Source of the DNA: a virus
Lineage: Duplodnaviria > Caudoviricetes
IMG/VR virus record: IMGVR_UViG_3300029288_000150
Span: 1-64,000 of that record
Strand: one strand, 5' to 3'
DNA: 64,000 nt
Every line of letters begins with the position of its first letter. The first letter of the stretch is position 1. This document shows, in pieces, positions 1 through 11,436 of this stretch. Both the position numbers and the translations under genes were made by a program. The notes under the pieces are model-generated. The model saw only the letters and a program-made list of their open reading frames with translations, did not search any database and was not told the DNA's origin.

Positions 1-430
1 CCGGACGGTGATGCTCGGCGTACTCCTGCCACTCGGCCGCCTCGCGTGCCTGGCGGTGGGCTTCCCTGTCCCGCCGCTGGGCCTGGTAAATGGCCTCGTC
101 CCGCTCGGTCCATTCGAACCATTCCGGGTGCGCGGTACCGAGAGCGTACATGCCCGCCGGCACCAGGAATAGCAGGAGGATAATGGCAGGCGCCCAGGGC
201 AGCAGGTTGACCGCCCGGACGCGGTCGGCCACCGGTTCTATGAGTGCCTGGCGCGTCTCCTCCTTCTTTTGCGCCGTCCTCTCCCGCTCGAGCTGCAATT
301 CAATGTTTTGGATTTTGAGCTCGACTTTGTGGATCTGGAGGTCAATCCAGTTGAGGAGTACCCGGCCCCCGACCACGACGACGAGCGTGATGACCAGGAG
401 GATGCAGACCATCGCAAGAAACTCGTTCAT
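1..430 (-). CDS. Membrane protein, truncated at window edge
   Basis: Hand translation from ATG 430 (overlaps stop of 427..738): MNEFLAMVCILLVITLVVVVGG... coiled segment, second hydrophobic stretch WAPAIILLLFLVPAGMYALG; no stop before base 1. Confidence 0.6.
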   Translation of the reverse strand, partial: MNEFLAMVCILLVITLVVVVGGRVLLNWIDLQIHKVELKIQNIELQLERERTAQKKEETRQALIEPVADRVRAVNLLPWAPAIILLLFLVPAGMYALGTAHPEWFEWTERDEAIYQAQRRDREAHRQAREAAEWQEYAEHHRP

Positions 431-738
431 TCTGGCATCCTCCGCAGCATGACCACGACGGCCACCAGCAGCCCGAAACCCAGGACGCCGGCGGCCAGCA
501 TGGCCAGGGAATAGGGCGCGGCCATGATGAGGTAATTTCGGTTGGCGATGTCCCAGGTCAAAATCAGTTGCTGCATCCACCGCACGTCGCTGTCTGAGAC
601 GACGGTCACCAACTCACCCGCCCCGGCCAGGACCTGGGCGGGGTCGGGCTGCTGCGCTTGCTGCGCTCCGCCCAGCAGCAGCGCGGCGACGATGGCGACG
701 ACGACGGCAGCCCCTCCAACGAGCGCGAGTCCCTTCAC
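427..738 (-). CDS. Small two-TM membrane protein
   Basis: Two hydrophobic segments, RBS GGAGG upstream of GTG, coupled to next gene. Confidence 0.6.
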   Translation of the reverse strand: MKGLALVGGAAVVVAIVAALLLGGAQQAQQPDPAQVLAGAGELVTVVSDSDVRWMQQLILTWDIANRNYLIMAAPYSLAMLAAGVLGFGLLVAVVVMLRRMPE

Positions 739-789
739 GTTCCCACCTCCATTTGCGATCTATGGGGTTGCCCCCTGTAGAAACTTGAA

Positions 790-939
790 CGCAAACCACA
801 AACCACGCAAACCACGCAAACCGACCGCAAACCGGCCCGCAAACCACCCGTTTCCGGTTTGCGACTCACAGGTCGCCCTCGCAAACCGGCCCGTCTGCGC
901 TCTCCCCGGTTTGCGGCCCGCAAACCGGACCCGCAAACC
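790..939. repeat. Array of 8-bp repeat CGCAAACC, 10 exact copies (8 forward, 2 reverse)
   Basis: Forward copies start at 790, 806, 815, 826, 838, 880, 919, 932; reverse GGTTTGCG at 856 and 908. Confidence 0.9.
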
Positions 940-2371
940 GGCCGGGTGCGTCCGGCTCCCACTCGCCGGCCTCGCAACGCTCCACGAGTTCCAGCAGGCA
1001 GCCCGTCACCCGCCGCCCCAGGTGCGCCGGCCCGTCCTTGACCAGCCAGCCCCGGGCAGCCCACTCCTCGGCCAGCATCCGGGCGGGGTAGGGCTTCAAA
1101 GCCAGGTACGCCTGGATGTTGGCGATGGTCAGGCGCCCGCCGTTCTCGGCCAGTGCCCAGCGGACCATTTCGACGTGCCCCCCCGACAGGGGCCCGGGGT
1201 CGAGGGCCACCGGCCGGCCGGCGGCCACCTCGGCGGCGATGCGCTCCAAATCGTCGTCCCCCAGGTGGAACCCCTGCAGGACCTGGTAGGTGCCCCCGGA
1301 CAGGCGGGCGATCATGCGGCCCGGCACCCGGGGGAGTTGGGGGACGGCCCGGCCCTTGGGCGGGTCGAGCACGATCCGGTAGTTGAGGTCGTCCGGCAGC
1401 CAGAAGGCCAGCCGGGTTGCAACGTTCGCCTTGAGCAAGCCCGCCACGGCCTCGGCGTCGGGGCGCTGCGTCGCCAGAATGGCGTGGATGCCAAAGGCCC
1501 GGCCCTTGGCCACCAGGCGCTGCAGGGTCAAAAGCGCCGGGCTCCGCGGCCCGCCCTCCAGGCCCAGGTCGGCCACCTCGTCGACCACGACCAGGACCAG
1601 CGGCAGGGGCGCGGGGGCTTTGGCGTTGTAGCCCTCGAGGTTCCGCACCCCGGCCCGGGCGAACAGCGCCCGCCGGACGTCCAGCTCCCCCAGGGCCCGG
1701 CCCAGCAGGGCGGCGGCCTCGGTCGCGTCGCGGGCCACCGGGCCCAGGGCGTGGGGAGACGCATCCCAGGCGGCCAACTCGACCTCCTTGGGGTCCACCA
1801 GCGCCAGCCGCAGGGCCTCCGGCCCATTCTGCGACAGGAGCCAGGCCAGCGCGGTATTGACCCACGAGCTCTTGCCCATGCCCCGCTGACCGCCCACCAG
1901 GACACAGTCGAGCGCGGCCAGCGAGCGCCACACCGGCCCGCCGTCCCCCATGCCCACGGGCACCTGGCAGGGCCCGGGCGGGGCCGCGCCGGCCTCCGCC
2001 AGGGGCACCCGGGCCGGCAACCGGCGGCGTCCCCCGGGCTGGAGGCGGACGGCGTAGGTCAACCCCGTCGTGTTGAGGACCTCGACGCGCCGCCCGCAGG
2101 CGGCCGTCAGGTCGTGGAGCGTCCGGGCCGAGGTGAGATCGTCCACCCGCACCCGGGGCGGCAGGCGGAGCGTGTCCACCTCCAGCAGGGCCACCGGCCC
2201 CAGCGTCGGGGTCTGGACCACCTGCAGCCCCTTGAACGCCACCTCGACCCTGTGCCCGTCTTTGGCGTCCCACCGGTGCCCCGTCCGGGTCAGCGTCGCC
2301 CGGATGCGCCGGGCCATCTCGGCGGTCTCGGCCTCCAGGTCCAGGGTCAGGCGCTCGACGTCCGCGCCCAT
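866..2371 (-). CDS. FtsK/SpoIIIE (TraB-like) DNA translocase with C-terminal gamma-like wHTH
   Basis: Walker A GGQRGMGKS, LVDPKEVEL, Walker B VVVDEVADL, KGRAFGIHAILATQRP; C-terminal TIANIQAYLALKPYPARMLAEEWAARGWLV resembles FtsK gamma; start moved to MGADVERL. Confidence 0.88.
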   Translation of the reverse strand: MGADVERLTLDLEAETAEMARRIRATLTRTGHRWDAKDGHRVEVAFKGLQVVQTPTLGPVALLEVDTLRLPPRVRVDDLTSARTLHDLTAACGRRVEVLNTTGLTYAVRLQPGGRRRLPARVPLAEAGAAPPGPCQVPVGMGDGGPVWRSLAALDCVLVGGQRGMGKSSWVNTALAWLLSQNGPEALRLALVDPKEVELAAWDASPHALGPVARDATEAAALLGRALGELDVRRALFARAGVRNLEGYNAKAPAPLPLVLVVVDEVADLGLEGGPRSPALLTLQRLVAKGRAFGIHAILATQRPDAEAVAGLLKANVATRLAFWLPDDLNYRIVLDPPKGRAVPQLPRVPGRMIARLSGGTYQVLQGFHLGDDDLERIAAEVAAGRPVALDPGPLSGGHVEMVRWALAENGGRLTIANIQAYLALKPYPARMLAEEWAARGWLVKDGPAHLGRRVTGCLLELVERCEAGEWEPDAPGRFAGPVCGPQTGESADGPVCEGDL

Positions 2372-2373
2372 GA

Positions 2374-3048
2374 TCAAGCCTCCTCTCCCGCGCCCGCCTT
2401 GAGCAGGCGCTCGACGTGCGATGCCAGATCGCCCTCGATCACCCTGACCGGCGGCAGGTCGTCGCCGCCCAGGGGCAACCGGGGCGCCCCCATCAGCCCC
2501 GACAGGGCCCGGCCGCCGTGTCCCGCGGCGGCCACCTGCACGACGGCGGCCCGCTCGGCGGCGTGGTATTGCGCCGGGGTCGCGGGATCGGGCATCTGGC
2601 CGTCGGACTCCACGACGCCGGCGGGGGCGGCGTTGGGATTCACCAGCCGCCCCGCCCGCTCGACGAGGGGATACAGCCCGTTCTCGGCGGCGTGGACGGT
2701 CCGGGCGTTCGTCTCGGCCTGGATTACCTCGGCGCGGCTGCGGCGGACGGACAGGTACAGGCGAAAAGCCGCGTAGACGACCCCCAGGACGACCGCAACG
2801 ACAAAGGCGGCAAGCAGGATACCCAGGATGATCCGCCAGCCCGCCCACGGCTCGGGCGCCGGGCGGTACTGTGGCGTGTGATCGCCGAACTCGCGCCACA
2901 CGACCCACCCCAGGAACAGGATCACGGCCAGGACCCCCACCAGGTACTCCCGGGTTATCTCGCTAAAATCCAACTTGAGCCCGTGCTCCTTGGTGGACAC
3001 GATGGCCACCGGTTGGGGCTCGGGCTTTGGCTTCTTACCCATCTCCAT
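2374..3048 (-). CDS. Two-TM membrane protein upstream of FtsK
   Basis: Hydrophobic YLVGVLAVILFLGWVVW and IILGILLAAFVVAVVLGVVYAAF. Confidence 0.7.
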   Translation of the reverse strand: MEMGKKPKPEPQPVAIVSTKEHGLKLDFSEITREYLVGVLAVILFLGWVVWREFGDHTPQYRPAPEPWAGWRIILGILLAAFVVAVVLGVVYAAFRLYLSVRRSRAEVIQAETNARTVHAAENGLYPLVERAGRLVNPNAAPAGVVESDGQMPDPATPAQYHAAERAAVVQVAAAGHGGRALSGLMGAPRLPLGGDDLPPVRVIEGDLASHVERLLKAGAGEEA

Positions 3049-3340
3049 CCTCCGCCACGCCCGCCGCAGCCAGCAGCCGGCGGGCGTGATCGACCTGGTC
3101 CTGGGGGACACTGAGCATAAACACGGCGTTGACCCGGTACAGCCCCAGGACCAGGACCCCGTGCCGCAGCAGGTAGACCGCGATCTCCTGGCCGCTATAC
3201 CCGCAATCGACCGAGAGCACCAGCGAAGCCGTGGCCCCCGCCGCGCCGGTTGCCCCGGCCCAGACGGGCGTGATCCAGTCCCACGCAGCCCCCCAGGAGA
3301 TAACCCACGGCACCGGATCGTCGTCTATCTGTGCGTCCAT
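3035..3340 (-). CDS. Hypothetical protein
   Basis: ORF with GGAG RBS before MDAQIDD, tiles the operon. Confidence 0.55.
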   Translation of the reverse strand: MDAQIDDDPVPWVISWGAAWDWITPVWAGATGAAGATASLVLSVDCGYSGQEIAVYLLRHGVLVLGLYRVNAVFMLSVPQDQVDHARRLLAAAGVAEDGDG

Positions 3341-3443
3341 AGCTCCACCAACGTCACGACCCCCACCAGGATCGGGATCCAGACCTCGACGCGGCCCCAC
3401 CAGGGCCGGCGGTGTCCCGTCCGGGCTTGCCGTTGCCCGCCCA

Positions 3444-3770
3444 CTAGACCCCCAGCCCGAGCTGCGTGGCGCCGGCGGCCCGGCGGGATGCGGCGACGGG
3501 GCCCCTGCCCCCGTTCTCCAAGAAGCGAACCGAGCCCCACCTGATCATGACGTCCACGCAGGCGGCGGCCGCCCGTCGGGGCGACTGGTCCTGGTGCTGA
3601 AACGCCAGCGACCCGGGGCCGGAGGCGTTGGTGCCCACGAACACAAACCCGGGCCAGCGATCGCTGTCCAGGGGCATGATCGCCCCCAGGCCCTGGTCCT
3701 GGGCGCGGCTGATGGCCGCCGCAGCGGCGTTCTCGATATACTTCCGGCAGTCGGCTGGAAACTCGAACAT
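3444..3770 (-). CDS. Hypothetical protein
   Basis: ORF with GGAGG RBS, follows ParR-like gene. Confidence 0.55.
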   Translation of the reverse strand: MFEFPADCRKYIENAAAAAISRAQDQGLGAIMPLDSDRWPGFVFVGTNASGPGSLAFQHQDQSPRRAAAACVDVMIRWGSVRFLENGGRGPVAASRRAAGATQLGLGV

Positions 3771-3779
3771 GATCGCCTC

Positions 3780-4079
3780 CTACAGCCCGAGCCCGTCCAG
3801 GGCCCGGGCCACGTCTTCCGGCTCGGCCCCGGGGTGGGCGGCTCCCTCTCTCCCGACCACCCCCAGGGCCTCGATCCTCTCCCCCAGGGCCCACACCTCG
3901 GCCCGCAGCTCGGCCAACGCCCCCAGCACCGCGTCCGCCGCCTGTCCCTGGATGGCGGCCCGGATGGCCTCGCGGATGGCCGCCGAACGGCCCCGGGCCG
4001 GCTGGGCTGCCAGCCACTCGACCAGGTCGCCGTCGGCCTGAGGGTCCACGCTGAACGAGATAGACACATACTCGGGCAT
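3780..4079 (-). CDS. ParR-like ribbon-helix-helix centromere-binding protein
   Basis: Directly downstream of ParM; N-terminal beta strand YVSISFSVD then helices DLVEWLAAQ...RSAAIREAIRAA, coiled C-terminus. Confidence 0.7.
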   Translation of the reverse strand: MPEYVSISFSVDPQADGDLVEWLAAQPARGRSAAIREAIRAAIQGQAADAVLGALAELRAEVWALGERIEALGVVGREGAAHPGAEPEDVARALDGLGL

Positions 4080-4129
4080 TGTCAATCACTCACAATAGGT
4101 GGGGCGGGCATTGTCAATGGTTGACAATG
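4074..4129. promoter_or_regulatory. TTGTCAAT repeats incl. inverted repeat CATTGTCAA-TGG-TTGACAATG
   Basis: GGGCATTGTCAAT at 4074 and 4106; palindrome 4109-4129; same motif at 5173-5189. Confidence 0.65.
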
Positions 4130-4145
4130 CGGGCCGTGGGGCTTC

Positions 4146-5120
4146 TCAGCCATGGCTCGCCACCCGCTGCGCCAGCTTCCAATAGCCGCAAGCATTGGCA
4201 TAGACCGGATCGGCAGAGATCCGGGCATGCCGGAAGTGACCCCGGACCCGCTCCCCCAGGAGGTGGGCCCCGCCGCCGGCCACCAGGATCGCCTGGAGCC
4301 GGCCGCCGCCGTTCCAGAGTTGGGTGGCCTGGTCGATGACCTGGGCCCCCAACCTGGCCAGGGCGTCCTCCACGACCTCCCCCAGGTCGAGGACCTGGTC
4401 AAAGTAGGTGACCCGGCGGGCCTGGACGGCGGCCATGATCTCGTGGTCCCGCAGGTGCAGCCCGGGCGCGGCATCGTCCAGGTAGCGGCCCACGGCCCGG
4501 GCCACGTCCCACAACCCGGCGGGGACGCTGGCCGTCTCGCGCCCGATCTCCGCCATGCGGCGCACGCTCAGGAGGTTGGTCGTCTTGCCCCCGACGTCGA
4601 TCACGCCCACCGTCCCGGAGGCCAGCTCCGCGTCGACGACCATCCCGCGCTCGTTGAGGGCCACCGCCAGGAGCGCCCCGAAAGGCTGGGGGATGACCCG
4701 CACCGCCCGGACGGTGAACCGCTGCGCCCGGCGCTTGGCCCGATGGACGAGGTGCTCGCCCGCCAGGCGCTCGGCCAGGGCCTCCCGGTCGTCGTAGTAG
4801 GCCACCGGGAGCCCGGTCACCAGGACCACGTCCACGGCGGTGGCCTCGGTGACCTCGGTCAACGCCGCCAGGAACAGGTCGGCGTACACGTCCCGGCGGA
4901 ACCAGCCGCGATCCTCGGCCCGGTCGGCGAAGCGGCTCTGCAGGACCGCCCCGTCGCCCACCAGGACGTGGCGGGGCTCCAGGAGCAGCACGTCCCCGCT
5001 TGCCCCGTTGAGCGAGAAGCGGCCGGCCTCGGGGGAGCCGGTCACGCTGGCCAGGTAGGCCCGGCGCTCGCCCGAGACCGCCTTGGTATGGCTGTAGCCA
5101 ATGTCGATCCCGATGTTCAC
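4146..5120 (-). CDS. parM: ParM/StbA family actin-like partitioning ATPase
   Basis: Actin-fold motifs IGIDIGYSHTK, GVIDVGGKTTN, VAGGGA, ANACG; GTG start with AGGAG RBS. Confidence 0.92.
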   Translation of the reverse strand: MNIGIDIGYSHTKAVSGERRAYLASVTGSPEAGRFSLNGASGDVLLLEPRHVLVGDGAVLQSRFADRAEDRGWFRRDVYADLFLAALTEVTEATAVDVVLVTGLPVAYYDDREALAERLAGEHLVHRAKRRAQRFTVRAVRVIPQPFGALLAVALNERGMVVDAELASGTVGVIDVGGKTTNLLSVRRMAEIGRETASVPAGLWDVARAVGRYLDDAAPGLHLRDHEIMAAVQARRVTYFDQVLDLGEVVEDALARLGAQVIDQATQLWNGGGRLQAILVAGGGAHLLGERVRGHFRHARISADPVYANACGYWKLAQRVASHG

Positions 5121-5150
5121 GGTTTGGACTCCTTTCGTGGGCTCTGCCCC

Positions 5151-5189
5151 ATTCTACCACAGCTTCTACTTTTTGTCAATAGTTGACAA
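5151..5189 (-). promoter_or_regulatory. Sigma70-type promoter for parM operon overlapped by TTGTCAA-N3-TTGACAA
   Basis: Minus strand TTGACA (5179-5174), 17 bp, TAGAAT (5156-5151). Confidence 0.75.
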
Positions 5190-5251
5190 TAGATTCTAAC
5201 GCCAAAAATTGCAGAATATCGCCCCGCCCCGCCGCCCAACAGGGCCAACCG

Positions 5252-5280
5252 TTGACAACCGGGACGGGATAGGTTATAAT
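5252..5280 (+). promoter_or_regulatory. Sigma70-type promoter
   Basis: TTGACA-17bp-TATAAT exact consensus upstream of 5325. Confidence 0.85.
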
Positions 5281-5324: not shown

Positions 5325-5531
5325 ATGGGAGGGACGTCCGTGTACCTAGACGAACGCTCGGCCGCACTGGCCGACCTGCTGGCCGACCACTTCCGGGCCC
5401 TGCCCGGACAGGTGGGCAAGGTGACCCGCTCCGCCGTGCTGCAGGCCGGCCTGGAGGCGTTGGCCCGGGAGCAGGGCCTGGACGAGGCCGAGATCCAGGC
5501 CGAACTCGACCGCCGGCTAGCGCCGGGGTAG
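5325..5531 (+). CDS. Small RHH-like DNA-binding protein divergent from parM
   Basis: TSVYLD strand then helices, KVTRSAVLQAGL; own promoter and GGAGG RBS. Confidence 0.65.
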   Translation: MGGTSVYLDERSAALADLLADHFRALPGQVGKVTRSAVLQAGLEALAREQGLDEAEIQAELDRRLAPG

Positions 5532-5562: not shown

Positions 5563-6012
5563 TCAGCCCGGCGCCTCCCTCCGGCAGGGCTTCCCGTCCC
5601 AGATCTGGCGCTTGCCCTCCAAGATCTCCCCCATGATGCACTCGCCGCCCGGGTCCAGGCAACCGGGCCGCCCCGGGCAGTCGGGCGGGCACCTGCCGGC
5701 CTTGTCGTAGAGGCCCCACACCAGCCGTCGCAGCCCCTCGCGCGTGAGGGCCCGCCGGTCCCTTTCCACCCGCTGCCCCCGGGGGCGGATGGGGACGCGG
5801 TGATAGCGCAGCGCCCGGCGCAGGCTATCGTGCCCGATCCCCAACTCCTGGGCCAACTCGTCCTGGGTGCGGGTGGCGTACATGGCCGCCAGCCGCTCCC
5901 CGTCCCGCAGCACTTCGGCCGCCGCAGGCAGGACGTGGCTCCCCAGCTCCAGCCCCGGCGGGGCGGGCCGGGGCTTGCGTTTGTAAATGCCCCGGTGCGT
6001 GTCGGCCATCAT
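5563..6012 (-). CDS. HTH protein with Cys-rich C-terminus
   Basis: TQDELAQELGIGHDSLRRAL HTH-like; CPPDC...GC...EC cluster. Confidence 0.55.
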   Translation of the reverse strand: MMADTHRGIYKRKPRPAPPGLELGSHVLPAAAEVLRDGERLAAMYATRTQDELAQELGIGHDSLRRALRYHRVPIRPRGQRVERDRRALTREGLRRLVWGLYDKAGRCPPDCPGRPGCLDPGGECIMGEILEGKRQIWDGKPCRREAPG

Positions 6013-6823: not shown

Positions 6824-7871
6824 GGTCGGGCTCCTTTCCAGGTTGATCGCGCAGGCCCAGGCGTTCCTGCTTCTCGCGATCCCAGGCTGCGCGACCCTGT
6901 TCTGCATTGGCTTGCCACTCTTGACATTCGTCCCCCCATCGCTCCTCGGCCCCCGGCTGCTCCCAGGGCGGGCGGCCCTCGTCGTCGCACATGCAGGGAT
7001 ACGAGTAGCAGCGCGGGCAGGTAAGCGCGATTCTCTCGGCTGGCTTGACCGGGGCGGGCGGCTCTTGGTGCCGGCGTAGGTTCGCGGCGGCCAGGGCCGG
7101 GACGTTGCCGATGGGCCGGCCGCTCACCAACTCGCCCCGATCCTTCCTGGCCTGGAGGTCGTCGACGGTGCGCCCAACCCGTTCGGGCGTCACCCAGGGG
7201 TCCCCGGCCAATTCCAGGGCCACATCCTCCCAGAACCCAGCCTCGGTGCAAGCCTGTTGCACGGCGGCATTAATAGTATTTGTCTGTTGGTGATGTTTAA
7301 GGGAAGGATCTGTAAGATCAACACCATCAACAATACTAGTATTAGCCGTGTGCAATGGCGTTGCACGAGATGGGGCGTTTTCGCCCGTTTCGTGCAATGG
7401 CGTTGCACCAGGATTATGTATATTGTCCGTTGCCGGCTCTCCCGGCGTGTGTTCGCCGCCTCTCGCGGCCTGTTGGGTTGCCGCCTCTCGCGGCCTGTTG
7501 GGTTGCCGCCTCTCGCGGCCTGTGTGTGCCGGCTCTCCCGGCGTGTGTTCGTCGCCTCTCGCGGCCTGGGGTTGCTCGCCGGTTATCATGGGACCCCGTT
7601 CCAGGTAGGTCCACCCCCGGCTGTAATGGATGTTCAGGTATCCCTGGGCCCCGAGGGATTGCAGGGTATGATAGGCGGTGCGCTGCGAGATGCCCCACCG
7701 CTCGGCCAACTCCTCGATTTTGACCCCGAGGGGCTTTCCGCTCCGCTTCGTGACCCACATCCAGCCGACGAGTTGGAGCAGGCGGAGGTGTGTCTCGGGC
7801 GGCAGGTCTGTGTCGCCGTATATCAGGCAGGGGTCGATGGCTACATAGTCCGGCGGGTCTTTAATCGCCAT
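6816..7871 (-). CDS. Putative replication initiator (N-terminal wHTH, internal DNA repeats)
   Basis: KIEELAERWGISQRTAYHTLQSLGAQGYL wHTH; central iterons and AT-richer tract, lambda-O-like layout. Confidence 0.7.
   Translation of the reverse strand: MAIKDPPDYVAIDPCLIYGDTDLPPETHLRLLQLVGWMWVTKRSGKPLGVKIEELAERWGISQRTAYHTLQSLGAQGYLNIHYSRGWTYLERGPMITGEQPQAARGDEHTPGEPAHTGRERRQPNRPREAATQQAARGGEHTPGEPATDNIHNPGATPLHETGENAPSRATPLHTANTSIVDGVDLTDPSLKHHQQTNTINAAVQQACTEAGFWEDVALELAGDPWVTPERVGRTVDDLQARKDRGELVSGRPIGNVPALAAANLRRHQEPPAPVKPAERIALTCPRCYSYPCMCDDEGRPPWEQPGAEERWGDECQEWQANAEQGRAAWDREKQERLGLRDQPGKEPDHA
7332..7568. repeat. Candidate origin: iterons inside initiator gene
   Basis: CGCCTCTCGCGGCCTG x4 (7457, 7482, 7507, 7553); 24-mer GCCGGCTCTCCCGGCGTGTGTTCG x2 (7432, 7528); GTGCAATGGCGTTGCAC x2 (7350, 7392); AATACTAGTATT palindrome 7332. 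Confidence 0.8.
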
Positions 7872-8124
7872 GGCGCACCTCGGGGGCCGGAAAATCAAGG
7901 GCCATTTGCAGCCGGCGGCCCGGCTCGTACCGCCAGCGGAGATCGGCCAGGCTGCCGATGGCGGCCTCCAGGCGGCCGTCGGTCTCGGCGTCCAGCCGGA
8001 CCAGGATCGTACCCGCCCGTCCATTGTTCGGCCGCCCAGGGGCCCAGGGCACCCCCAGGGCCTGGAGCATTTGCACCAGGTCGGGGTCGCTGCGAACCTC
8101 GACGATGTCATCACCTGGATACAT
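7861..8124 (-). CDS. Hypothetical protein
   Basis: GGAGG RBS before MYPGDD; overlaps both neighbours. Confidence 0.5.
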   Translation of the reverse strand: MYPGDDIVEVRSDPDLVQMLQALGVPWAPGRPNNGRAGTILVRLDAETDGRLEAAIGSLADLRWRYEPGRRLQMALDFPAPEVRHGD

Positions 8125-8755
8125 GGGCTTCCTCCCTCGTGACCGGCTCGCCCGGGTGCGCCCATTTCTGGGAGTTGTGAAATCGGCAGAGGATTTGCAG
8201 GTTGTCCAAGTCGTCGGTCCCTCCCCTGGCAATGGGGACAATGTGATCGACGGTCAGATCCTCGGTTTCCTGGCACCCCTGGACGGCGCACCTGTAGCCG
8301 TCCCGCTTGATCAAGGCCAGGAGCAACCGATCCCGTTGTCTGTCAAAGTCTCCGCGCCTGCGGCGGGCGGCCTGGCGTTGGGCTTCCCTGGCGGCCAATG
8401 CTGCCCGCTCCAGGGCCAACAGGTCCAGTTGTCCCTGCACGACCTCCCGGGTATAGGCATCCAGGAATGGATCGGCCAGGATCATCCGCGCCAGGTCCTC
8501 AATGGCGTCCAGGGAGAGATCCCGCTTCTGGGCTTCCCACCAGTAATGATCCACCGCGCAGCAGAGCAACCGCAGGCGTGAGAGTTCCCCCGCCAACTCG
8601 ACCAGGGCCGCGCCAAACTCTTGCGGGTTGGCCGCCACCCGGGCGATTGCGTCCTGGTTGGCGGGGTCTACCCCAAGCACGGGCCCAAGGAACGGCCCCG
8701 GATCCATGAAGATGAACGTGTAACCCTTGTGCTCAAGCTGTAACGTGTAGCCCAT
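8111..8755 (-). CDS. HNH endonuclease
   Basis: RDGYRCAVQGC...LTVDHIVPIARGGTDDLDNLQILCRFHNSQK. Confidence 0.9.
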   Translation of the reverse strand: MGYTLQLEHKGYTFIFMDPGPFLGPVLGVDPANQDAIARVAANPQEFGAALVELAGELSRLRLLCCAVDHYWWEAQKRDLSLDAIEDLARMILADPFLDAYTREVVQGQLDLLALERAALAAREAQRQAARRRRGDFDRQRDRLLLALIKRDGYRCAVQGCQETEDLTVDHIVPIARGGTDDLDNLQILCRFHNSQKWAHPGEPVTREEAHVSR

Positions 8756-9203
8756 GCTCCTCTCCTAATCCCTCGACCAGGACCTCGACCCGGGGCCTGT
8801 CCCGGTCGATGGCCTTGTACCAGTGGCAGGTGACGATCTGGGAGTCGTCCTCCCAGACGATGCCGTTCAGGGCGTCGCTCACGCCCTTGAGGATGTTGTC
8901 CCCGTCCGCCCGGGCCGCCGTCGCCCGCCAGATGCGGAGCGTCAACTCCACCGGCCCGGTCAGGGGCGGGCGGCCCGCCATGGCCAGCCGGGCGACGTCG
9001 CCGACGTAGCCCTCCCAAGCCCTGGTCCGCTGGGGCGTGTAGGCCGTCGCCCGCCGCCCCGGTCGCAGGATGACCCGCGGGCGCTCCTTGGGGATCGGGT
9101 TGCCCTCGACGGTGAAAGAGACAGCCCGCCCCGGCCCGGCGCCGTGCGTTGCCGGCTGCCGGGACGGGGGCCGGGCCTGGTAGGTCGCCTTGCGCTCGCT
9201 CAT
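8733..9203 (-). CDS. rusA: RusA family Holliday junction resolvase
   Basis: PIPKERPR, ADGDNILKGVSDALNGIVWEDDSQIV. Confidence 0.9.
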   Translation of the reverse strand: MSERKATYQARPPSRQPATHGAGPGRAVSFTVEGNPIPKERPRVILRPGRRATAYTPQRTRAWEGYVGDVARLAMAGRPPLTGPVELTLRIWRATAARADGDNILKGVSDALNGIVWEDDSQIVTCHWYKAIDRDRPRVEVLVEGLGEEHGLHVTA

Positions 9204-9418
9204 CCGCTTCCCCTTTCTGCCCGTGCCAGGATGCCCGCCACCTGCCGGCGAAACAGCAGGCGGATGACGTCCAACTCCCCCGCCAGCCCCGGGATAGGAG
9301 CGGAGGGGGCGCCCCGGGGGCGGCGGGCCCAACGGTGCCCGCATTCGGGACAGAAAAAGAACCGCCCGCCCCACGGGCACCACCCGGCCCCGCACCGGGG
9401 GCACGTCTCCCAGGTCAC
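9200..9418 (-). CDS. Small zinc-ribbon protein
   Basis: CPRCG...CPECG. Confidence 0.6.
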   Translation of the reverse strand: MTWETCPRCGAGWCPWGGRFFFCPECGHRWARRPRGAPSAPIPGLAGELDVIRLLFRRQVAGILARAERGSG

Positions 9419-9419
9419 G

Positions 9420-10118
9420 CTAGATCTCCAGGTCCCCGACGCCGGCCCGCCATCCCTGACCGGGTGGCCACGCCGCGGGCTGTTCCGCCGCGCTTCCCCC
9501 GTCCACGTCGACCAGGGCGGCGAGCATCCGCTCGAGGTGGTCGGCCTGGGCCCGGACGGCGTCCAGTGTGAGGCGCATCTCGGCCACGTTGCCGCCGATG
9601 CCCTCCAGCATGTTGGCCGCGTTCGTGAAGTGCCGCCTGTTGCCCGCCAGCCGCCAGCGGGCCAGCTCCTGGGCCAGCCGCGGGTAACGGGCGGCCAGGT
9701 GGCGGAGCTCCTCGAGCTCCCCGGCCGTCTCCCGGGCCTCGGCCGCCCGGGCCTCAGCCTCGGCCCTCTCCCTCTCCGCCTGCAACTCCCGGGCCCGCCG
9801 CTCCTCGAGGAGGTGGATGATAAAATCCGGCCCGCCGGCGGCGCCCATGGCCACCAGCAGCACGGCGGCCACCAGTGGGGTCATGGCCACGCCCAGCAGC
9901 CCGGCCCACAGGAGCAGGCCGCCGGCGTCCGTCACCAGCCCCACGGCATAGTTGAAGCGGGCGGGCGGGCCCCAGCCGTCGGCCCGCTCCGTCGCCCCGC
10001 TGCGCTTGTTGAGCAGCCGGCCGATGAGGATCACGGCGTAGTGCTCGACGACCAGGGCCCCGGCCACCAGGGCGGTGGCCCGGACCAGGCTTTGCCAGGT
10101 TTCCAGGCTCCAGTCCAT
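9420..10118 (-). CDS. Membrane protein with coiled-coil C-terminus
   Basis: Three hydrophobic segments then heptad-rich region. Confidence 0.65.
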   Translation of the reverse strand: MDWSLETWQSLVRATALVAGALVVEHYAVILIGRLLNKRSGATERADGWGPPARFNYAVGLVTDAGGLLLWAGLLGVAMTPLVAAVLLVAMGAAGGPDFIIHLLEERRARELQAERERAEAEARAAEARETAGELEELRHLAARYPRLAQELARWRLAGNRRHFTNAANMLEGIGGNVAEMRLTLDAVRAQADHLERMLAALVDVDGGSAAEQPAAWPPGQGWRAGVGDLEI

Positions 10119-10121
10119 CTC

Positions 10122-10250
10122 TCACCCTCCGTGGTACTCGAATGGCTCAAAGCGAGAGCTCATCACGGCATCGGCGCGGCTGGCAGCGCGGGCCAGAGAC
10201 CAGGCAAACCATAGCAGGAGGATAAGCGCGATCGGGATAATCCAGGCCAT
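10122..10250 (-). CDS. 42-aa single-TM peptide
   Basis: Hand translation MAWIIPIALILLLWFAWSLARAASRADAVMSSRFEPFEYHGG; GGAG upstream. Confidence 0.5.
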   Translation of the reverse strand: MAWIIPIALILLLWFAWSLARAASRADAVMSSRFEPFEYHGG

Positions 10251-10273
10251 CTCAGTTACTCCTCTCCTATTCA

Positions 10274-10624
10274 TCATTTGCCGCGATGGGCTTCCCATGC
10301 GCGTATCATCCGCAGAAACGACTTACCGGGCGGCGGGTCGGGCTCTGGCACATCCAGAATTGTAACGGGCTTGCCCAGGGCGAATGCCATGCCCATATCG
10401 AACAGGCAGCCGGTTGACCGCCCATCCCAAACGACAAAGACGCGATCCGCCGCTTCAATAGCTGCCCGGTTCTGCTCGCAGATCGCCAAGCCGACAGGGT
10501 CATCCTGGTTCGTGTCTCGGTGCGGCCAGTGGACGGCCCAGCCCTCGCTTTCCAGTCTTTTGACAACTGCCTCTGTTTCTTCTGGACTATGGCCCCGCAC
10601 TGGGCAAATCAAGAACGCTCTCAT
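10274..10624 (-). CDS. Nucleoside 2-deoxyribosyltransferase / N-glycosidase-like protein
   Basis: AIEAADRVFVVWDGRSTGCLFDMGMAFALGKPV matches NDT-fold pattern. Confidence 0.7.
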   Translation of the reverse strand: MRAFLICPVRGHSPEETEAVVKRLESEGWAVHWPHRDTNQDDPVGLAICEQNRAAIEAADRVFVVWDGRSTGCLFDMGMAFALGKPVTILDVPEPDPPPGKSFLRMIRAWEAHRGK

Positions 10625-11436
10625 TCTACCTCCTTGTGCATCGCGGCCATTGCTGCCGGGCGTGACCACGTTCGAGCCAGCGCCCGCCATTCGGCGTTGT
10701 AGTCAATCCAACGGTCGGCGGGTTGGTATAATTGTGCAAACGGTAGCCCGCCAAGCGCCCAAACTGCTTCCAGCCGTTCGGTTGCCGCGTCAACCGTCTC
10801 GCCGTTGAAGGCGATCATCACGTAAACCCGGCACTTGTAGCGGGGCAGGGCCAATCGCTTGATGGCCGCCTCTAGCGGTTTGAGCGCCCCCACGGTATCA
10901 GCGGCCAAAAAGACCTCGCGGATTCGCAAGCCCCGCAGCCAGTCAACGCGCCAGTCGTCCAGGCGTCGCGACTCAAGGCCGCCCGAGAAGACGGCGGCTC
11001 GGCGTTGCGTGGCGAGCATGGCCCCCACACGCTCCAGGTGCGCCCGGCTCGCCTGCAAGATGTTATTATCCTGAATAATGTACCCCGGCGCAAAGTTGTG
11101 GATCTCGGACAGTCGCCCCTCCCGTTCTGGCACCAGGCACCAGGGGCAGTTGTTGTTGCAGCCGTGCGTCGTGAACGTCACGCCCGCCTTGATGTACTGG
11201 CCTGGTGTAAAGCCGTTGGGGCAGGCGTCAAACGCCGGACCATCCAACTTAACCACAGGATAGTAATTGCGCCACGCCTCGGCCAGCCGTTGGCCTTCTG
11301 CCTGGTCCCATGTGAACACCACCGATACATGAACCTCATCGGCGGCGGGTCGCCACAGCGGCGGGTCACCTACAAAAGCCAGTGGATCATCTGGCGTCAT
11401 CGCGGTTTTTCGCGGGAACACTCTTAATATTCGCAT
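10621..11436 (-). CDS. Radical SAM protein
   Basis: GCNNNCPWC CxxxCxxC motif, IIQDNN, FSGGLE, RVYVMI. Confidence 0.8.
   Translation of the reverse strand: MRILRVFPRKTAMTPDDPLAFVGDPPLWRPAADEVHVSVVFTWDQAEGQRLAEAWRNYYPVVKLDGPAFDACPNGFTPGQYIKAGVTFTTHGCNNNCPWCLVPEREGRLSEIHNFAPGYIIQDNNILQASRAHLERVGAMLATQRRAAVFSGGLESRRLDDWRVDWLRGLRIREVFLAADTVGALKPLEAAIKRLALPRYKCRVYVMIAFNGETVDAATERLEAVWALGGLPFAQLYQPADRWIDYNAEWRALARTWSRPAAMAAMHKEVE

What the first reader, a model, noticed from the sequence alone, without database searches (positions are those of the whole stretch)
1..3048. TraB/clt-like dsDNA transfer module inside a tailed phage
Seen: an FtsK-family ATPase with a gamma-like wHTH ends on an array of ten exact 8-bp repeats (CGCAAACC, 8 in one orientation), flanked by three membrane-protein genes in the same operon. 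Known: FtsK gamma domains read oriented 8-mers (KOPS), and Streptomyces plasmid TraB binds clt loci made of 8-bp repeats next to traB, with Spd membrane proteins for spreading. Inference: this phage may move its circular dsDNA between cells or along filaments without making virions.
Basis: partly seen in the sequence, partly recalled or inferred. Interest (0 to 1): 0.8.

Follow-up and report, generated by a model that had tools for sequence, protein, structure and literature searches.

The report
Phage DNA pump with own docking array
A temperate tailed phage, probably of Chloroflexota bacteria, carries an anchor-less FtsK-type DNA pump whose gene ends in ten copies of an 8-base word; related phages keep different words at the same spot, so the array is most likely the pump's loading site, but whether the pump moves phage DNA between cells is untested.

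Summary
CGCAAACC occurs 10 times in 790-939 (8 on +, 2 on -) and only twice more in the 75-kb record. The array straddles the stop codon of a 501-aa FtsK/SpoIIIE-family protein (866-2371, - strand).

The protein has no membrane segment. It folds as an FtsK alpha-beta motor plus a C-terminal winged helix that is profile-homologous to true FtsK gamma domains.

The main new result is comparative. Of 15 loci encoding this family, 10 carry an array of 4-11 copies of a 6-9 bp word at or over the 3' end of the gene, and an eleventh has one 3.3 kb away. The word differs between lineages and tracks the type of recognition helix. Two complete phage records have pump and array but no ParM- or ParA-like match.

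A membrane protein is encoded directly upstream in most of these loci. In the window the module shares a predicted operon with parM/parR.

By sequence the pump is much nearer FtsK than Streptomyces TraB. I therefore read it as a new phage-borne, site-directed DNA pump that works like TraB/clt. Virion-free spread remains speculation. Earlier notes of this scan describe similar modules in other phages.

The parts
790..939 (.). Array of 10 exact CGCAAACC plus one CACAAACC. In gene orientation the word is GGTTTGYG: 9 copies point with the pump gene and 2 are inverted. Spacing is irregular, 8-28 bp. The proposed role is loading or docking site of the pump.
   Evidence: The array is identical in contigs of independent landfill and groundwater runs, and two strains show indel variants.
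866..2371 (-). FtsK/SpoIIIE-family ATPase (P0001), 501 aa, with no membrane segment. Domains: alpha-like 1-130, RecA-type beta 130-385, gamma-like wHTH 397-467, and a disordered tail 470-501 encoded by the array.
   Evidence: PF01580 E 1.9e-25; phrog_1358 E 3e-53. PDB sequence search: FtsK E 8e-36, TcpA 3e-14, EccC 7e-8. AF2 pLDDT 88.8. Foldseek: FtsK motor E 4e-24 over about 410 columns. Walker A G166/K167 and Walker B D264/E265 are invariant in 39 homologs. The gamma profile match is 92%.
2374..3048 (-). Membrane protein with two predicted membrane segments, 224 aa. Its stop codon lies 2 nt before the pump's ATG. Its acidic C-terminal tail (LPPVRVIEG..HVERLL..EEA) is conserved in the homologs encoded upstream of the pump in L010 and L222. 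The proposed role is membrane anchor or partner of the pump.
   Evidence: It matches no family in Pfam, PHROGs, NCBIfam, PADLOC or the Atlas. The complex prediction with the pump gave only weak support: ipSAE 0.40, best control 0.00, partner pLDDT 41-50.
3035..3340 (-). Small conserved protein of 101 aa with the motif CG[YW]xGxEI. Function unknown. Homologs lie beside the pump gene in L010 and L331.
   Evidence: BLASTP clusters (E 3e-13 and 6e-19).
427..738 (-). Small membrane protein of 103 aa with two predicted membrane segments, the first gene after the array. Its stop overlaps the next start (ATGA). A homolog lies at the same place in L010.
   Evidence: E 5e-12.
2..430 (-). Membrane and coiled-coil protein that runs off the window start. 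If the end of the record is joined to its start, the frame stays open for 33 more codons, giving 176 aa.
3780..4085 (-). Ribbon-helix-helix protein of 101 aa in the ParR position, downstream of parM.
   Evidence: Weak RHH_1 match. It is 33% identical to the protein that follows ParM in L298.
4146..5120 (-). ParM-type actin-like segregation ATPase, 324 aa, the first gene of the predicted operon.
   Evidence: ALP_N E 7e-25; phrog_691 partition protein E 4e-45.
5151..5179 (-). Sigma-70-type promoter (TTGACA-17-TAGAAT with TG) for the - strand operon. It overlaps the palindrome TTGTCAAtagTTGACAA.

Best explanation
The pump and the array are a cognate pair. The C-terminal gamma-type winged helix of the soluble FtsK-like ATPase binds the GGTTTGYG words clustered at the end of its own gene. 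The ATPase then assembles on the phage's double-stranded DNA there and pumps that DNA in a direction set by the mostly one-way orientation of the words. This is the logic of FtsK on KOPS and of Streptomyces TraB on clt.

The pump has no membrane anchor of its own. It is probably held at the membrane or septum by the membrane protein encoded immediately upstream.

The module shares a predicted operon with parM/parR. It therefore most likely acts on the episomal (plasmid-like) prophage. Either it moves a copy across a closing division septum, or, less likely, it passes a copy into a neighbouring cell of a host filament.

Shown here: the domains, the array, its recurrence beside homologs with lineage-specific words, and the synteny. 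Inferred: binding, loading, direction, membrane tethering and the biological role.
For: 1. The motor is a complete FtsK alpha-beta fold with intact Walker motifs. Its C-terminal wHTH aligns to true FtsK gamma domains at 92% probability.
2. Of 15 loci encoding this family, 10 carry 4-11 copies of a 6-9 bp word within -150 to +110 bp of the stop codon, and an eleventh (L298) has one 3.3 kb downstream.
3. With an 8-mer, one-mismatch statistic, the 3'-end window beats every background window in WIN, L010, L331, L258, L239 and L322, and 99% of them in L011. In L010, L011, L258 and L322 it is the top array of the whole 8-15 kb locus.
4. The words differ by lineage and follow the wHTH type. The clade with '..AR..' in helix 3 (WIN, L010, L231, L298, L322) has GTTTG/GTCTG cores. 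The 'SK[RY]' clade (L011, L258, L467, L331) has TCAC/CCAC cores.
5. The helix-3 positions that vary align with the stretch of FtsK gamma helix 3 that, as I recall, holds the KOPS-contacting residues. W..RGWL is invariant.
6. Copies within an array point one way.
7. Downstream genes differ among loci, so the array follows the pump gene.
8. The complete records of L322 and L231 have pump and array but no ALP_N or AAA_31 match.
9. A membrane protein is encoded directly upstream of the pump in 10 of the 15 loci. Its C-terminal tail is conserved across WIN, L010 and L222.
10. The array is kept unchanged in independent samples.
Against: - No binding, ATPase or translocation data exist.
- Four loci (L222, L260, L221, L229) show no clear array, and L298's is displaced by 3.3 kb.
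- The match between helix type and word could be shared ancestry alone, because the two groups are clades.
- The orientation of the words relative to the gene is not conserved: L322, L231 and L298 are reversed.
- Pfam's FtsK_gamma model does not hit the domain, and Foldseek ranks generic MarR/MntR wHTH proteins first.
- Earlier AI notes from this scan report a phage module in which the words followed a membrane-protein gene rather than the pump.
Confidence: 0.5

Rival explanations
1. The array is the centromere (parC) of the ParM/ParR partition system in the same operon. ParR, not the pump, binds it, and the position next to the pump gene is incidental.
For: parM and an RHH protein head the same predicted operon. 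No repeat array lies upstream of parM, where parC usually sits, in the window or in L298. Ten short iterons are typical of a parC. WIN and L298, the two loci found with ParM plus an RHH protein beside the pump, have related words (CGCAAACC, TGCCAAAC). In L011 the array lies about 240 bp upstream of a parA gene.
Against: Arrays sit at the pump's 3' end in loci whose fetched flanks have no ParM or ParA homolog. The complete records of L322 and L231 have no ALP_N or AAA_31 match at all. In the window the array is 3 kb and four genes away from parR. Spacing of 8-28 bp is irregular, unlike the phased parC repeats I recall from R1 and pSK41.
Confidence: 0.15
2. The pump reads the array as proposed, but its role is true cell-to-cell transfer. 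Together with the membrane proteins it passes the circular phage genome through septa along host filaments or into contacting cells, without virions, as Streptomyces TraB, clt and Spd proteins do for plasmids.
For: The layout matches TraB/clt/Spd as described in PMC4447253 and PMC5133688. In pIJ101 the tra gene is also followed directly by spd membrane-protein genes. The likely hosts are Chloroflexota. The phage is found in landfill, digester and wastewater samples, habitats where, to my knowledge, filamentous Anaerolineae are common. The frame that stays open across the record's junction fits a circular or permuted genome.
Against: There is no functional evidence. The pump is far nearer FtsK than TraB. 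The membrane proteins have no kinship to Spd proteins and no cell-wall hydrolase is present. The host is not identified, so its filamentous habit is assumed. The family's N-terminal domain was not found in 401 Actinomycetota genomes, where this mechanism is known. Co-transcription with parM/parR fits vertical maintenance equally well.
Confidence: 0.2
3. The array is a regulatory or replication element: an operator or attenuator through which the wHTH controls the downstream membrane genes, or origin iterons. The ATPase would then not load there to pump DNA.
For: The array fills the spacer just before the two downstream membrane-protein genes. It contains two perfect 11-bp inverted repeats that could form hairpins in the transcript. 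Foldseek places the wHTH closest to MarR/MntR-type repressors. TraB-type genes are described as toxic and tightly regulated (PMC4447253).
Against: In L258, L322 and L331 the array lies wholly inside the pump ORF, and the genes after it differ. No replication initiator is consistently adjacent. A repressor role does not explain why the wHTH is fused to an intact translocase in all 39 aligned homologs.
Confidence: 0.08
4. The pump serves the lytic cycle, for example pulling the rest of the genome into the cell after infection or feeding DNA to the packaging machinery.
For: FtsK/SpoIIIE-like genes occur in many virulent Bacillus and Mycobacterium phages. PHROGs groups the protein with such phage genes.
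Against: The phage has a canonical large terminase about 25 kb away. The pump is in the parM/parR operon, next to maintenance genes and not next to packaging genes. The closest relatives of the pump are a separate family with its own N- and C-terminal domains.
Confidence: 0.07

Closest known systems
Streptomyces TraB with its clt locus and Spd spread proteins (pSVH1, pIJ101, pJV1; PMC4447253, PMC5133688)
   Same: An FtsK/SpoIIIE-type ATPase with a C-terminal DNA-reading winged helix. A single cluster of direct 8-bp repeats on the element serves as its recognition site. Small membrane-protein genes lie in the same operon; in pIJ101 tra is followed directly by spdA and spdB.
   Different: Sequence kinship is weak: 33 bits, 27% identity over the ATPase core only. 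The pump has no membrane-associated N-terminal part. The membrane partners are unrelated orphans. The carrier is a tailed temperate phage with parM/parR and a terminase, probably of Chloroflexota. The family's N-terminal domain was not found in 401 Actinomycetota genomes searched. Transfer function is untested.
Cellular FtsK with KOPS, and SpoIIIE with SRS
   Same: This is the closest relative by sequence and fold. The alpha and beta motor domains align over about 410 columns at 26-29% identity. The gamma-type wHTH sits at the same C-terminal position. It reads an oriented 8-bp word.
   Different: The N-terminal 4TM domain and the long linker are absent; PF13491 and PF17854 are not found, although the cellular FtsK hits carry them. 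The Pfam FtsK_gamma model is not hit. The words are not spread and skewed along a chromosome but packed into one 150-bp cluster, with only 2 other copies in 75 kb. No Xer/dif partner is evident.
TcpA of Clostridium perfringens pCW3 (FtsK-like conjugation coupling protein, PDB 6o1w-6o1z)
   Same: It is the second-best solved relative (E 3e-14 by sequence, 5e-19 by fold) and an FtsK-like ATPase of a mobile element that works with separate membrane proteins.
   Different: As I recall, TcpA has N-terminal membrane segments, no gamma-type wHTH and no known repeat array, and works with a relaxase and single-stranded DNA. No relaxase was seen in this module.
FtsK/SpoIIIE-like genes of Bacillus and Mycobacterium phages and plasmid-prophages (phrog_1358; PMC11526630)
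   Same: Phage-borne FtsK-family ATPases, in some cases in phages that also carry ParM-type partition genes. They are thought to act in DNA segregation.
   Different: Identity is only 25-38%, limited to the ATPase core. No cognate repeat array or gamma-type reader is mentioned for them in the passages read. The family here has its own conserved N- and C-terminal domains.

Membership tests
FtsK/SpoIIIE ATPase superfamily (PF01580) | RecA-type ATPase core with Walker A and Walker B motifs, matching the family model above its cut-off | tested here: met
   PF01580 scores 90 bits against a cut-off of 24. G166/K167 and D264/E265 are invariant in 39 homologs.
Cellular FtsK (DNA translocase FtsK) | N-terminal 4TM membrane domain and linker | tested here: not met
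   No hydrophobic segment is predicted. There are no PF13491 or PF17854 hits. The NCBIfam FtsK equivalog scores 113 bits against a cut-off of 1566.
Cellular FtsK (DNA translocase FtsK) | Alpha plus beta motor fold | tested here: met
   Foldseek aligns about 400-413 columns to 2iut, 2ius and 6t8o, E 4e-24.
Cellular FtsK (DNA translocase FtsK) | C-terminal gamma domain (PF09397) | tested here: inconclusive
   The Pfam model is not hit in any of 13 family members. hhalign of the family's C-domain against 13 true gamma domains gives 92% probability, E 6e-7. The fold is a wHTH.
Cellular FtsK (DNA translocase FtsK) | Recognition words skewed along the whole replicon (KOPS-like) | tested here: not met
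   Ten of the 12 copies in 75 kb lie in one 150-bp cluster.
Streptomyces TraB / Tra (AICE and plasmid dsDNA transfer) | Sequence kinship to characterised TraB/Tra proteins | tested here: not met
   BLASTP against pIJ101 Tra gives 33 bits, E 2e-5, covering the ATPase core only. Streptomyces accounts for 15 of 557 matching plasmid records, and none is among the 25 best listed.
Streptomyces TraB / Tra (AICE and plasmid dsDNA transfer) | Cis-acting locus of direct 8-bp repeats recognised by the C-terminal wHTH | tested here: inconclusive
   The array and the wHTH are present, recur together in homologs and co-vary. Binding itself was not tested.
Streptomyces TraB / Tra (AICE and plasmid dsDNA transfer) | Membrane association or pore formation by the ATPase | tested here: inconclusive
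   The protein has no membrane segment. An upstream membrane partner with a conserved tail is present. The complex prediction gave weak support only: ipSAE 0.40 against 0.00 for the best control, partner pLDDT 41-50.
Streptomyces TraB / Tra (AICE and plasmid dsDNA transfer) | Conjugative transfer and intramycelial spread shown genetically | not testable with these tools
   This needs a cultured host or a surrogate.
ParMRC type II partition locus | Centromere of repeats upstream of parM, bound by ParR | tested here: not met
   Upstream of parM there are only two 13-bp repeats and one palindrome. The array lies 3 kb downstream of parR. ParR binding was not tested.
Type VII secretion EccC/EssC and HerA/packaging ATPases | Best similarity to these clades | tested here: not met
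   EccC scores E 7e-8 and EssC 4e-13, well behind FtsK. HerA scores 1e-5 or weaker. The large-terminase family phrog_2666 scores only E 1.5e-4.

The most novel reading that the evidence does not exclude
A family of temperate tailed phages of filamentous Chloroflexota has a second, virion-free way to spread. A site-directed FtsK-type pump, tethered by phage membrane proteins, pushes the episomal phage genome through septa from cell to cell along the host filament. It starts at a lineage-specific 8-bp loading array.
Probability: 0.2. Interest if true: 0.9.

Novelty: new variant of a known kind. Interest (0 to 1): 0.66.

Why it matters
Site-directed dsDNA pumps are known from chromosome segregation (FtsK/KOPS, SpoIIIE/SRS) and from Streptomyces conjugation (TraB/clt). 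This module shows the same logic in an unannotated protein family of tailed phages from a different phylum: a gamma-type reader fused to a motor, with its word array kept at the end of its own gene.

The lineage-specific words and the variable helix-3 positions offer a natural set of reader and site pairs for working out how gamma domains choose their sequence.

If the pump acts on the episomal prophage, it adds a new component to phage-plasmid maintenance. If it moves DNA between cells, it blurs the line between phages and conjugative elements.

No paper found in the held library describes such an array for a phage FtsK-like protein. Earlier AI notes of this scan describe similar layouts in actinomycete, cyanobacterial and Bacteroidota phages, so the theme may be broad.

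Tried and rejected
DNA around most of the ~40 metagenomic homologs (P0002-P0043) could not be fetched, so the locus set is small (15).
- The metagenome contigs and genome-contig scans with the family alignment were swamped by cellular FtsK. They gave only two truncated family loci, L052 and L121.
- Pattern scans of viral contigs had mixed yield. LLEVDTxRLP gave one false locus. WExRGWL gave 8 members and its TTR variant one more.
- Exact k-mer statistics missed the degenerate arrays of L010 and L220. I replaced them with a one-mismatch 8-mer statistic. The hit that statistic gave in L222 (GGGCCGGG) is GC-rich low complexity and I did not count it.
- Foldseek of the isolated C-domain did not single out FtsK gamma.
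- The Pfam, PHROGs, NCBIfam, PADLOC and Atlas searches run on the flanking membrane proteins gave nothing usable.
- The PADLOC SspH hits are only the shared ATPase domain.
- A defence-system reading was dropped for lack of any partner genes.
- The other strong array in the record (~69.9 kb) is a coding Ser/Pro/Thr repeat according to an earlier scan note and is unrelated.
- Complex prediction of the pump with the cytoplasmic part of the upstream membrane protein gave weak support: ipSAE 0.40, best control 0.00. In the tool's calibration 58 of 80 solved complexes and 2 of 110 mismatched pairs reached the mark, but at scores of 0.60 or under only 7 of the solved ones did, and both mismatches. 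The runs agree in at least 39% of contacts and the partner's pLDDT is 41-50. I do not count it as evidence.
- Laying public contigs could show neither transcription nor the circular junction.


Full report
**What is there.**
The window is the first 64 kb of a 75,219-bp IMG/VR virus record that CheckV rates complete. It is about 70% G+C. It encodes a large terminase, a tape measure, a Dit-like tail protein and a large serine recombinase. It is therefore a temperate tailed phage.

Positions 1-5180 hold a run of - strand genes behind one strong sigma-70-type promoter at 5179-5151. No terminator-like site follows down to position 1. The genes, in order, are:
- a ParM-type actin-like ATPase (4146-5120)
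- a ribbon-helix-helix protein in the ParR position (3780-4085)
- two small ORFs
- a 224-aa protein with two predicted membrane segments (2374-3048)
- the FtsK-like gene (866-2371)
- the repeat array (790-939)
- a 103-aa protein with two predicted membrane segments (427-738)
- a membrane and coiled-coil protein that runs off the window (2-430)

If the end of the record is joined to its start, that last frame stays open for 33 more codons. This fits a circular or circularly permuted genome.

**The observation.**
CGCAAACC occurs 11 times in the window, against 2.9 expected. Ten copies lie in 790-939, eight on the + strand and two on the - strand. The whole record has only two further copies. A one-mismatch copy lies at 797. 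Four copies lie inside the last ~24 codons of the FtsK-like ORF. The rest fill the 127-bp spacer before the next gene. The ORF tail that the array encodes (residues 470-501) is predicted disordered. The overlap therefore looks like a by-product of the DNA repeats and not a protein feature.

**The protein.**
P0001 (501 aa) matches PF01580 and has no hydrophobic segment. By sequence its best solved relatives are P. aeruginosa and E. coli FtsK (E 8e-36), then TcpA of pCW3 (3e-14), then EccC (7e-8).

The AlphaFold model built on 39 homologs has pLDDT 88.8. Foldseek aligns it to the FtsK alpha-beta motor over about 410 columns at E 4e-24, ahead of TcpA, EssC/EccC and HerA. Walker A and B residues are invariant in the family.

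Residues 397-467 form a winged helix. Foldseek finds only generic MarR/MntR-type winged helices, and the Pfam FtsK_gamma model does not hit. A profile-profile comparison with 13 true gamma domains cut from cellular FtsK genes gives 92% probability, E 6e-7, across helices 1-3 and the wing. tblastn alignments to plasmid-borne FtsK genes also run through to residue 457.

Against the Tra protein of pIJ101 the match is only 33 bits, in the ATPase core. The protein is thus an anchor-less FtsK alpha-beta-gamma module and not a TraB by descent.

**The family and its arrays.**
About 40 clusters of 450-505-aa homologs exist among 5.8 billion proteins. All come from metagenomes or Chloroflexi MAGs. They share N- and C-terminal domains that cellular FtsK proteins lack or have in another form.

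I therefore gathered loci through viral-contig scans and genome searches. This gave fourteen loci besides the window.

Ten of the 15 loci carry, within -150 to +110 bp of the stop codon, an array of 4-11 copies of a 6-9 bp word. In gene orientation the words are:

| Locus | Word |
|---|---|
| window | GGTTTGYG |
| L010 | GTTTGHG |
| L322 | reverse complement of GGYTTGAS |
| L231 | reverse complement of GTCTGTCG |
| L011 | GGTGACAC |
| L258 | GTDWCACC |
| L467 | GATRTCAC |
| L331 | YACCACG |
| L239 | CYSCACAGG |
| L220 | GTCGYA (weak) |

L298 has five copies of the reverse complement of GTTTGKCA in an intergenic spacer 3.3 kb downstream. L222, L260, L221 and L229 show nothing convincing.

With an 8-mer, one-mismatch count in 160-bp windows, the 3'-end window exceeds every background window of its locus in six loci, and 99% of them in a seventh. 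In four loci it is the strongest array in the 8-15 kb fetched. Within an array the copies point one way. The direction relative to the gene varies between loci.

The unconserved C-terminal tails of some homologs without DNA in hand contain repeated short peptides. Examples are GRFE in P0009 and P0010, and RFED in P0007. This is what an array read through by the ORF would give.

**Who reads the array?**
The genes after the array differ among loci: small membrane proteins, a parA gene, or various unrelated small ORFs. The array therefore follows the pump gene.

ParM with an RHH protein beside the pump was found only in the window and L298, and ParA only in L011. The complete records holding L322 (37.5 kb) and L231 (57.8 kb) have pump and array but no ALP_N or AAA_31 match.

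The wHTH keeps an invariant W..RGWL...R.VT frame, while the first half of helix 3 and the wing vary. The variable helix-3 positions align with the part of FtsK gamma that, as I recall from the E. coli and P. aeruginosa work, contacts KOPS.

Two clades stand out. Proteins with '..AR..' in helix 3 go with GTTTG/GTCTG words. Proteins with 'SK[RY]' go with TCAC/CCAC words. This is what a reader and site pair predicts, but shared ancestry alone could also produce it.

The parC rival is not excluded for the window. No repeat array lies upstream of parM here or in L298.

**Membrane partner.**
A membrane protein is encoded directly upstream of the pump in 10 of the 15 loci. These proteins fall into at least two unrelated families. 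In the window its stop codon lies 2 nt before the pump's ATG.

The window, L010 and L222 proteins share an acidic C-terminal tail, LPPVR[VI]..HV[ED]RLL..EE. A complex prediction of the motor with this cytoplasmic part gave weak support only (details under Tried and rejected). None of the membrane proteins matches any known family.

**Where it occurs.**
The family's N-terminal domain was found in 1 of 401 Chloroflexota genomes (two copies) and in 0 of 401 Actinomycetota genomes searched. Named homologs come from Chloroflexi MAGs.

Near-identical DNA is held by landfill, groundwater, wastewater and digester metagenomes from 16 studies. In contigs of independent runs the array is unchanged. One strain skips 45 bp of it and another has a diverged stretch. 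The pump gene shows 0-1 differences, while the downstream membrane genes show 14-28.

**Mechanism and comparison.**
The best-supported reading is a cognate pump and loading-site pair:
1. The gamma domain binds the clustered words.
2. The motor assembles there on double-stranded phage DNA.
3. It pumps in a direction set by the words.
4. It is probably held at the membrane by its upstream partner.

This is how TraB/clt works (PMC4447253, PMC5133688) and how FtsK loads on KOPS.

It is not a member of the TraB family, nor a canonical FtsK. It has no 4TM domain, no genome-wide skew of the word and no hit to the Pfam gamma model. I file it as a new variant of the site-directed FtsK-type translocases.

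Co-transcription with parM/parR points to a role on the episomal prophage. I cannot decide between moving a copy across a closing septum and moving it into a neighbouring cell. I give the latter about 0.2.

**Literature and the scan.**
Searches of the held library found FtsK/SpoIIIE-like genes noted in Bacillus plasmid-prophages, with a presumed segregation role (PMC11526630). They found no description of a cognate array for a phage FtsK-like protein. Earlier AI notes of this scan describe similar pump, array and membrane-gene modules in other phages. One of them found the words following a membrane-protein gene rather than the pump. That caution is why I tested which gene the array follows here.

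Noticed in passing
window 2-430 (- strand) and the end of the record (L009): The ORF that runs off the window start stays in frame for 33 more codons if the record's last base is joined to its first, ending ...ELAER. This suggests the 'linear' record is a complete circular or circularly permuted genome cut inside a gene.
   Followed up: partly
L010:32-298 (+): A stand-alone 89-aa ORF resembles the pump's gamma-type wHTH: E 6e-9 to the family profile, and 37-41% identity to the domains of the window and of L298. It lies upstream of the pump in a position like that of ParR in the window. It could be a second reader of the same array.
   Followed up: partly
window 3035-3340 (-); L010:559-840; L331 (gene after the pump): A small conserved protein with the motif CG[YW]xGxEI travels with the pump gene in three loci. 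No known family matched the window's copy, the only one searched.
   Followed up: partly
L298 (pump-oriented coordinates) about 5650-5700 and 9030-9070; array at 8950-9030: In this complete DTR phage the word array (TGCCAAAC, 5-7 copies) lies 3.3 kb downstream of the pump gene. Nearly the same palindromic sequence, TTATTTCCTGGGAA(A)TAAT, follows both the pump's stop and the array. This may mean a block of opposite-strand genes was inserted or inverted between them.
   Followed up: no
window 5173-5189 and 5246-5258: The palindrome TTGTCAAtagTTGACAA overlaps the -35 box of the parM operon promoter. A related CAACCGTTGACAA overlaps the divergent + strand promoter of a small RHH gene (5325-5531). 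These are probably operators. They do not resemble the CGCAAACC word.
   Followed up: partly
window 222-850 versus 944-3400 in public runs X2-X4: Across landfill, groundwater and wastewater contigs the pump gene differs by 0-1 bases. The two membrane-protein genes after the array differ by 14-28 bases. One run has a 45-bp deletion variant of the array (872-918), and another has a diverged array stretch before 905.
   Followed up: partly
record position about 69,900 (L009, outside the window): The only other array as dense as this one (CCGAGGGC-like, about 10 copies in 160 bp) lies in a coding region. An earlier scan note reads it as a Ser/Pro/Thr-rich linker of a baseplate protein.
   Followed up: no
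L011:6389-7559 and 7754-10858: In this provirus the pump and its array are followed by a ParA-type ATPase, a 123-aa partner protein and a 1035-aa DnaG-type primase fusion. The pump module therefore sits beside partition and replication genes there as well.
   Followed up: partly
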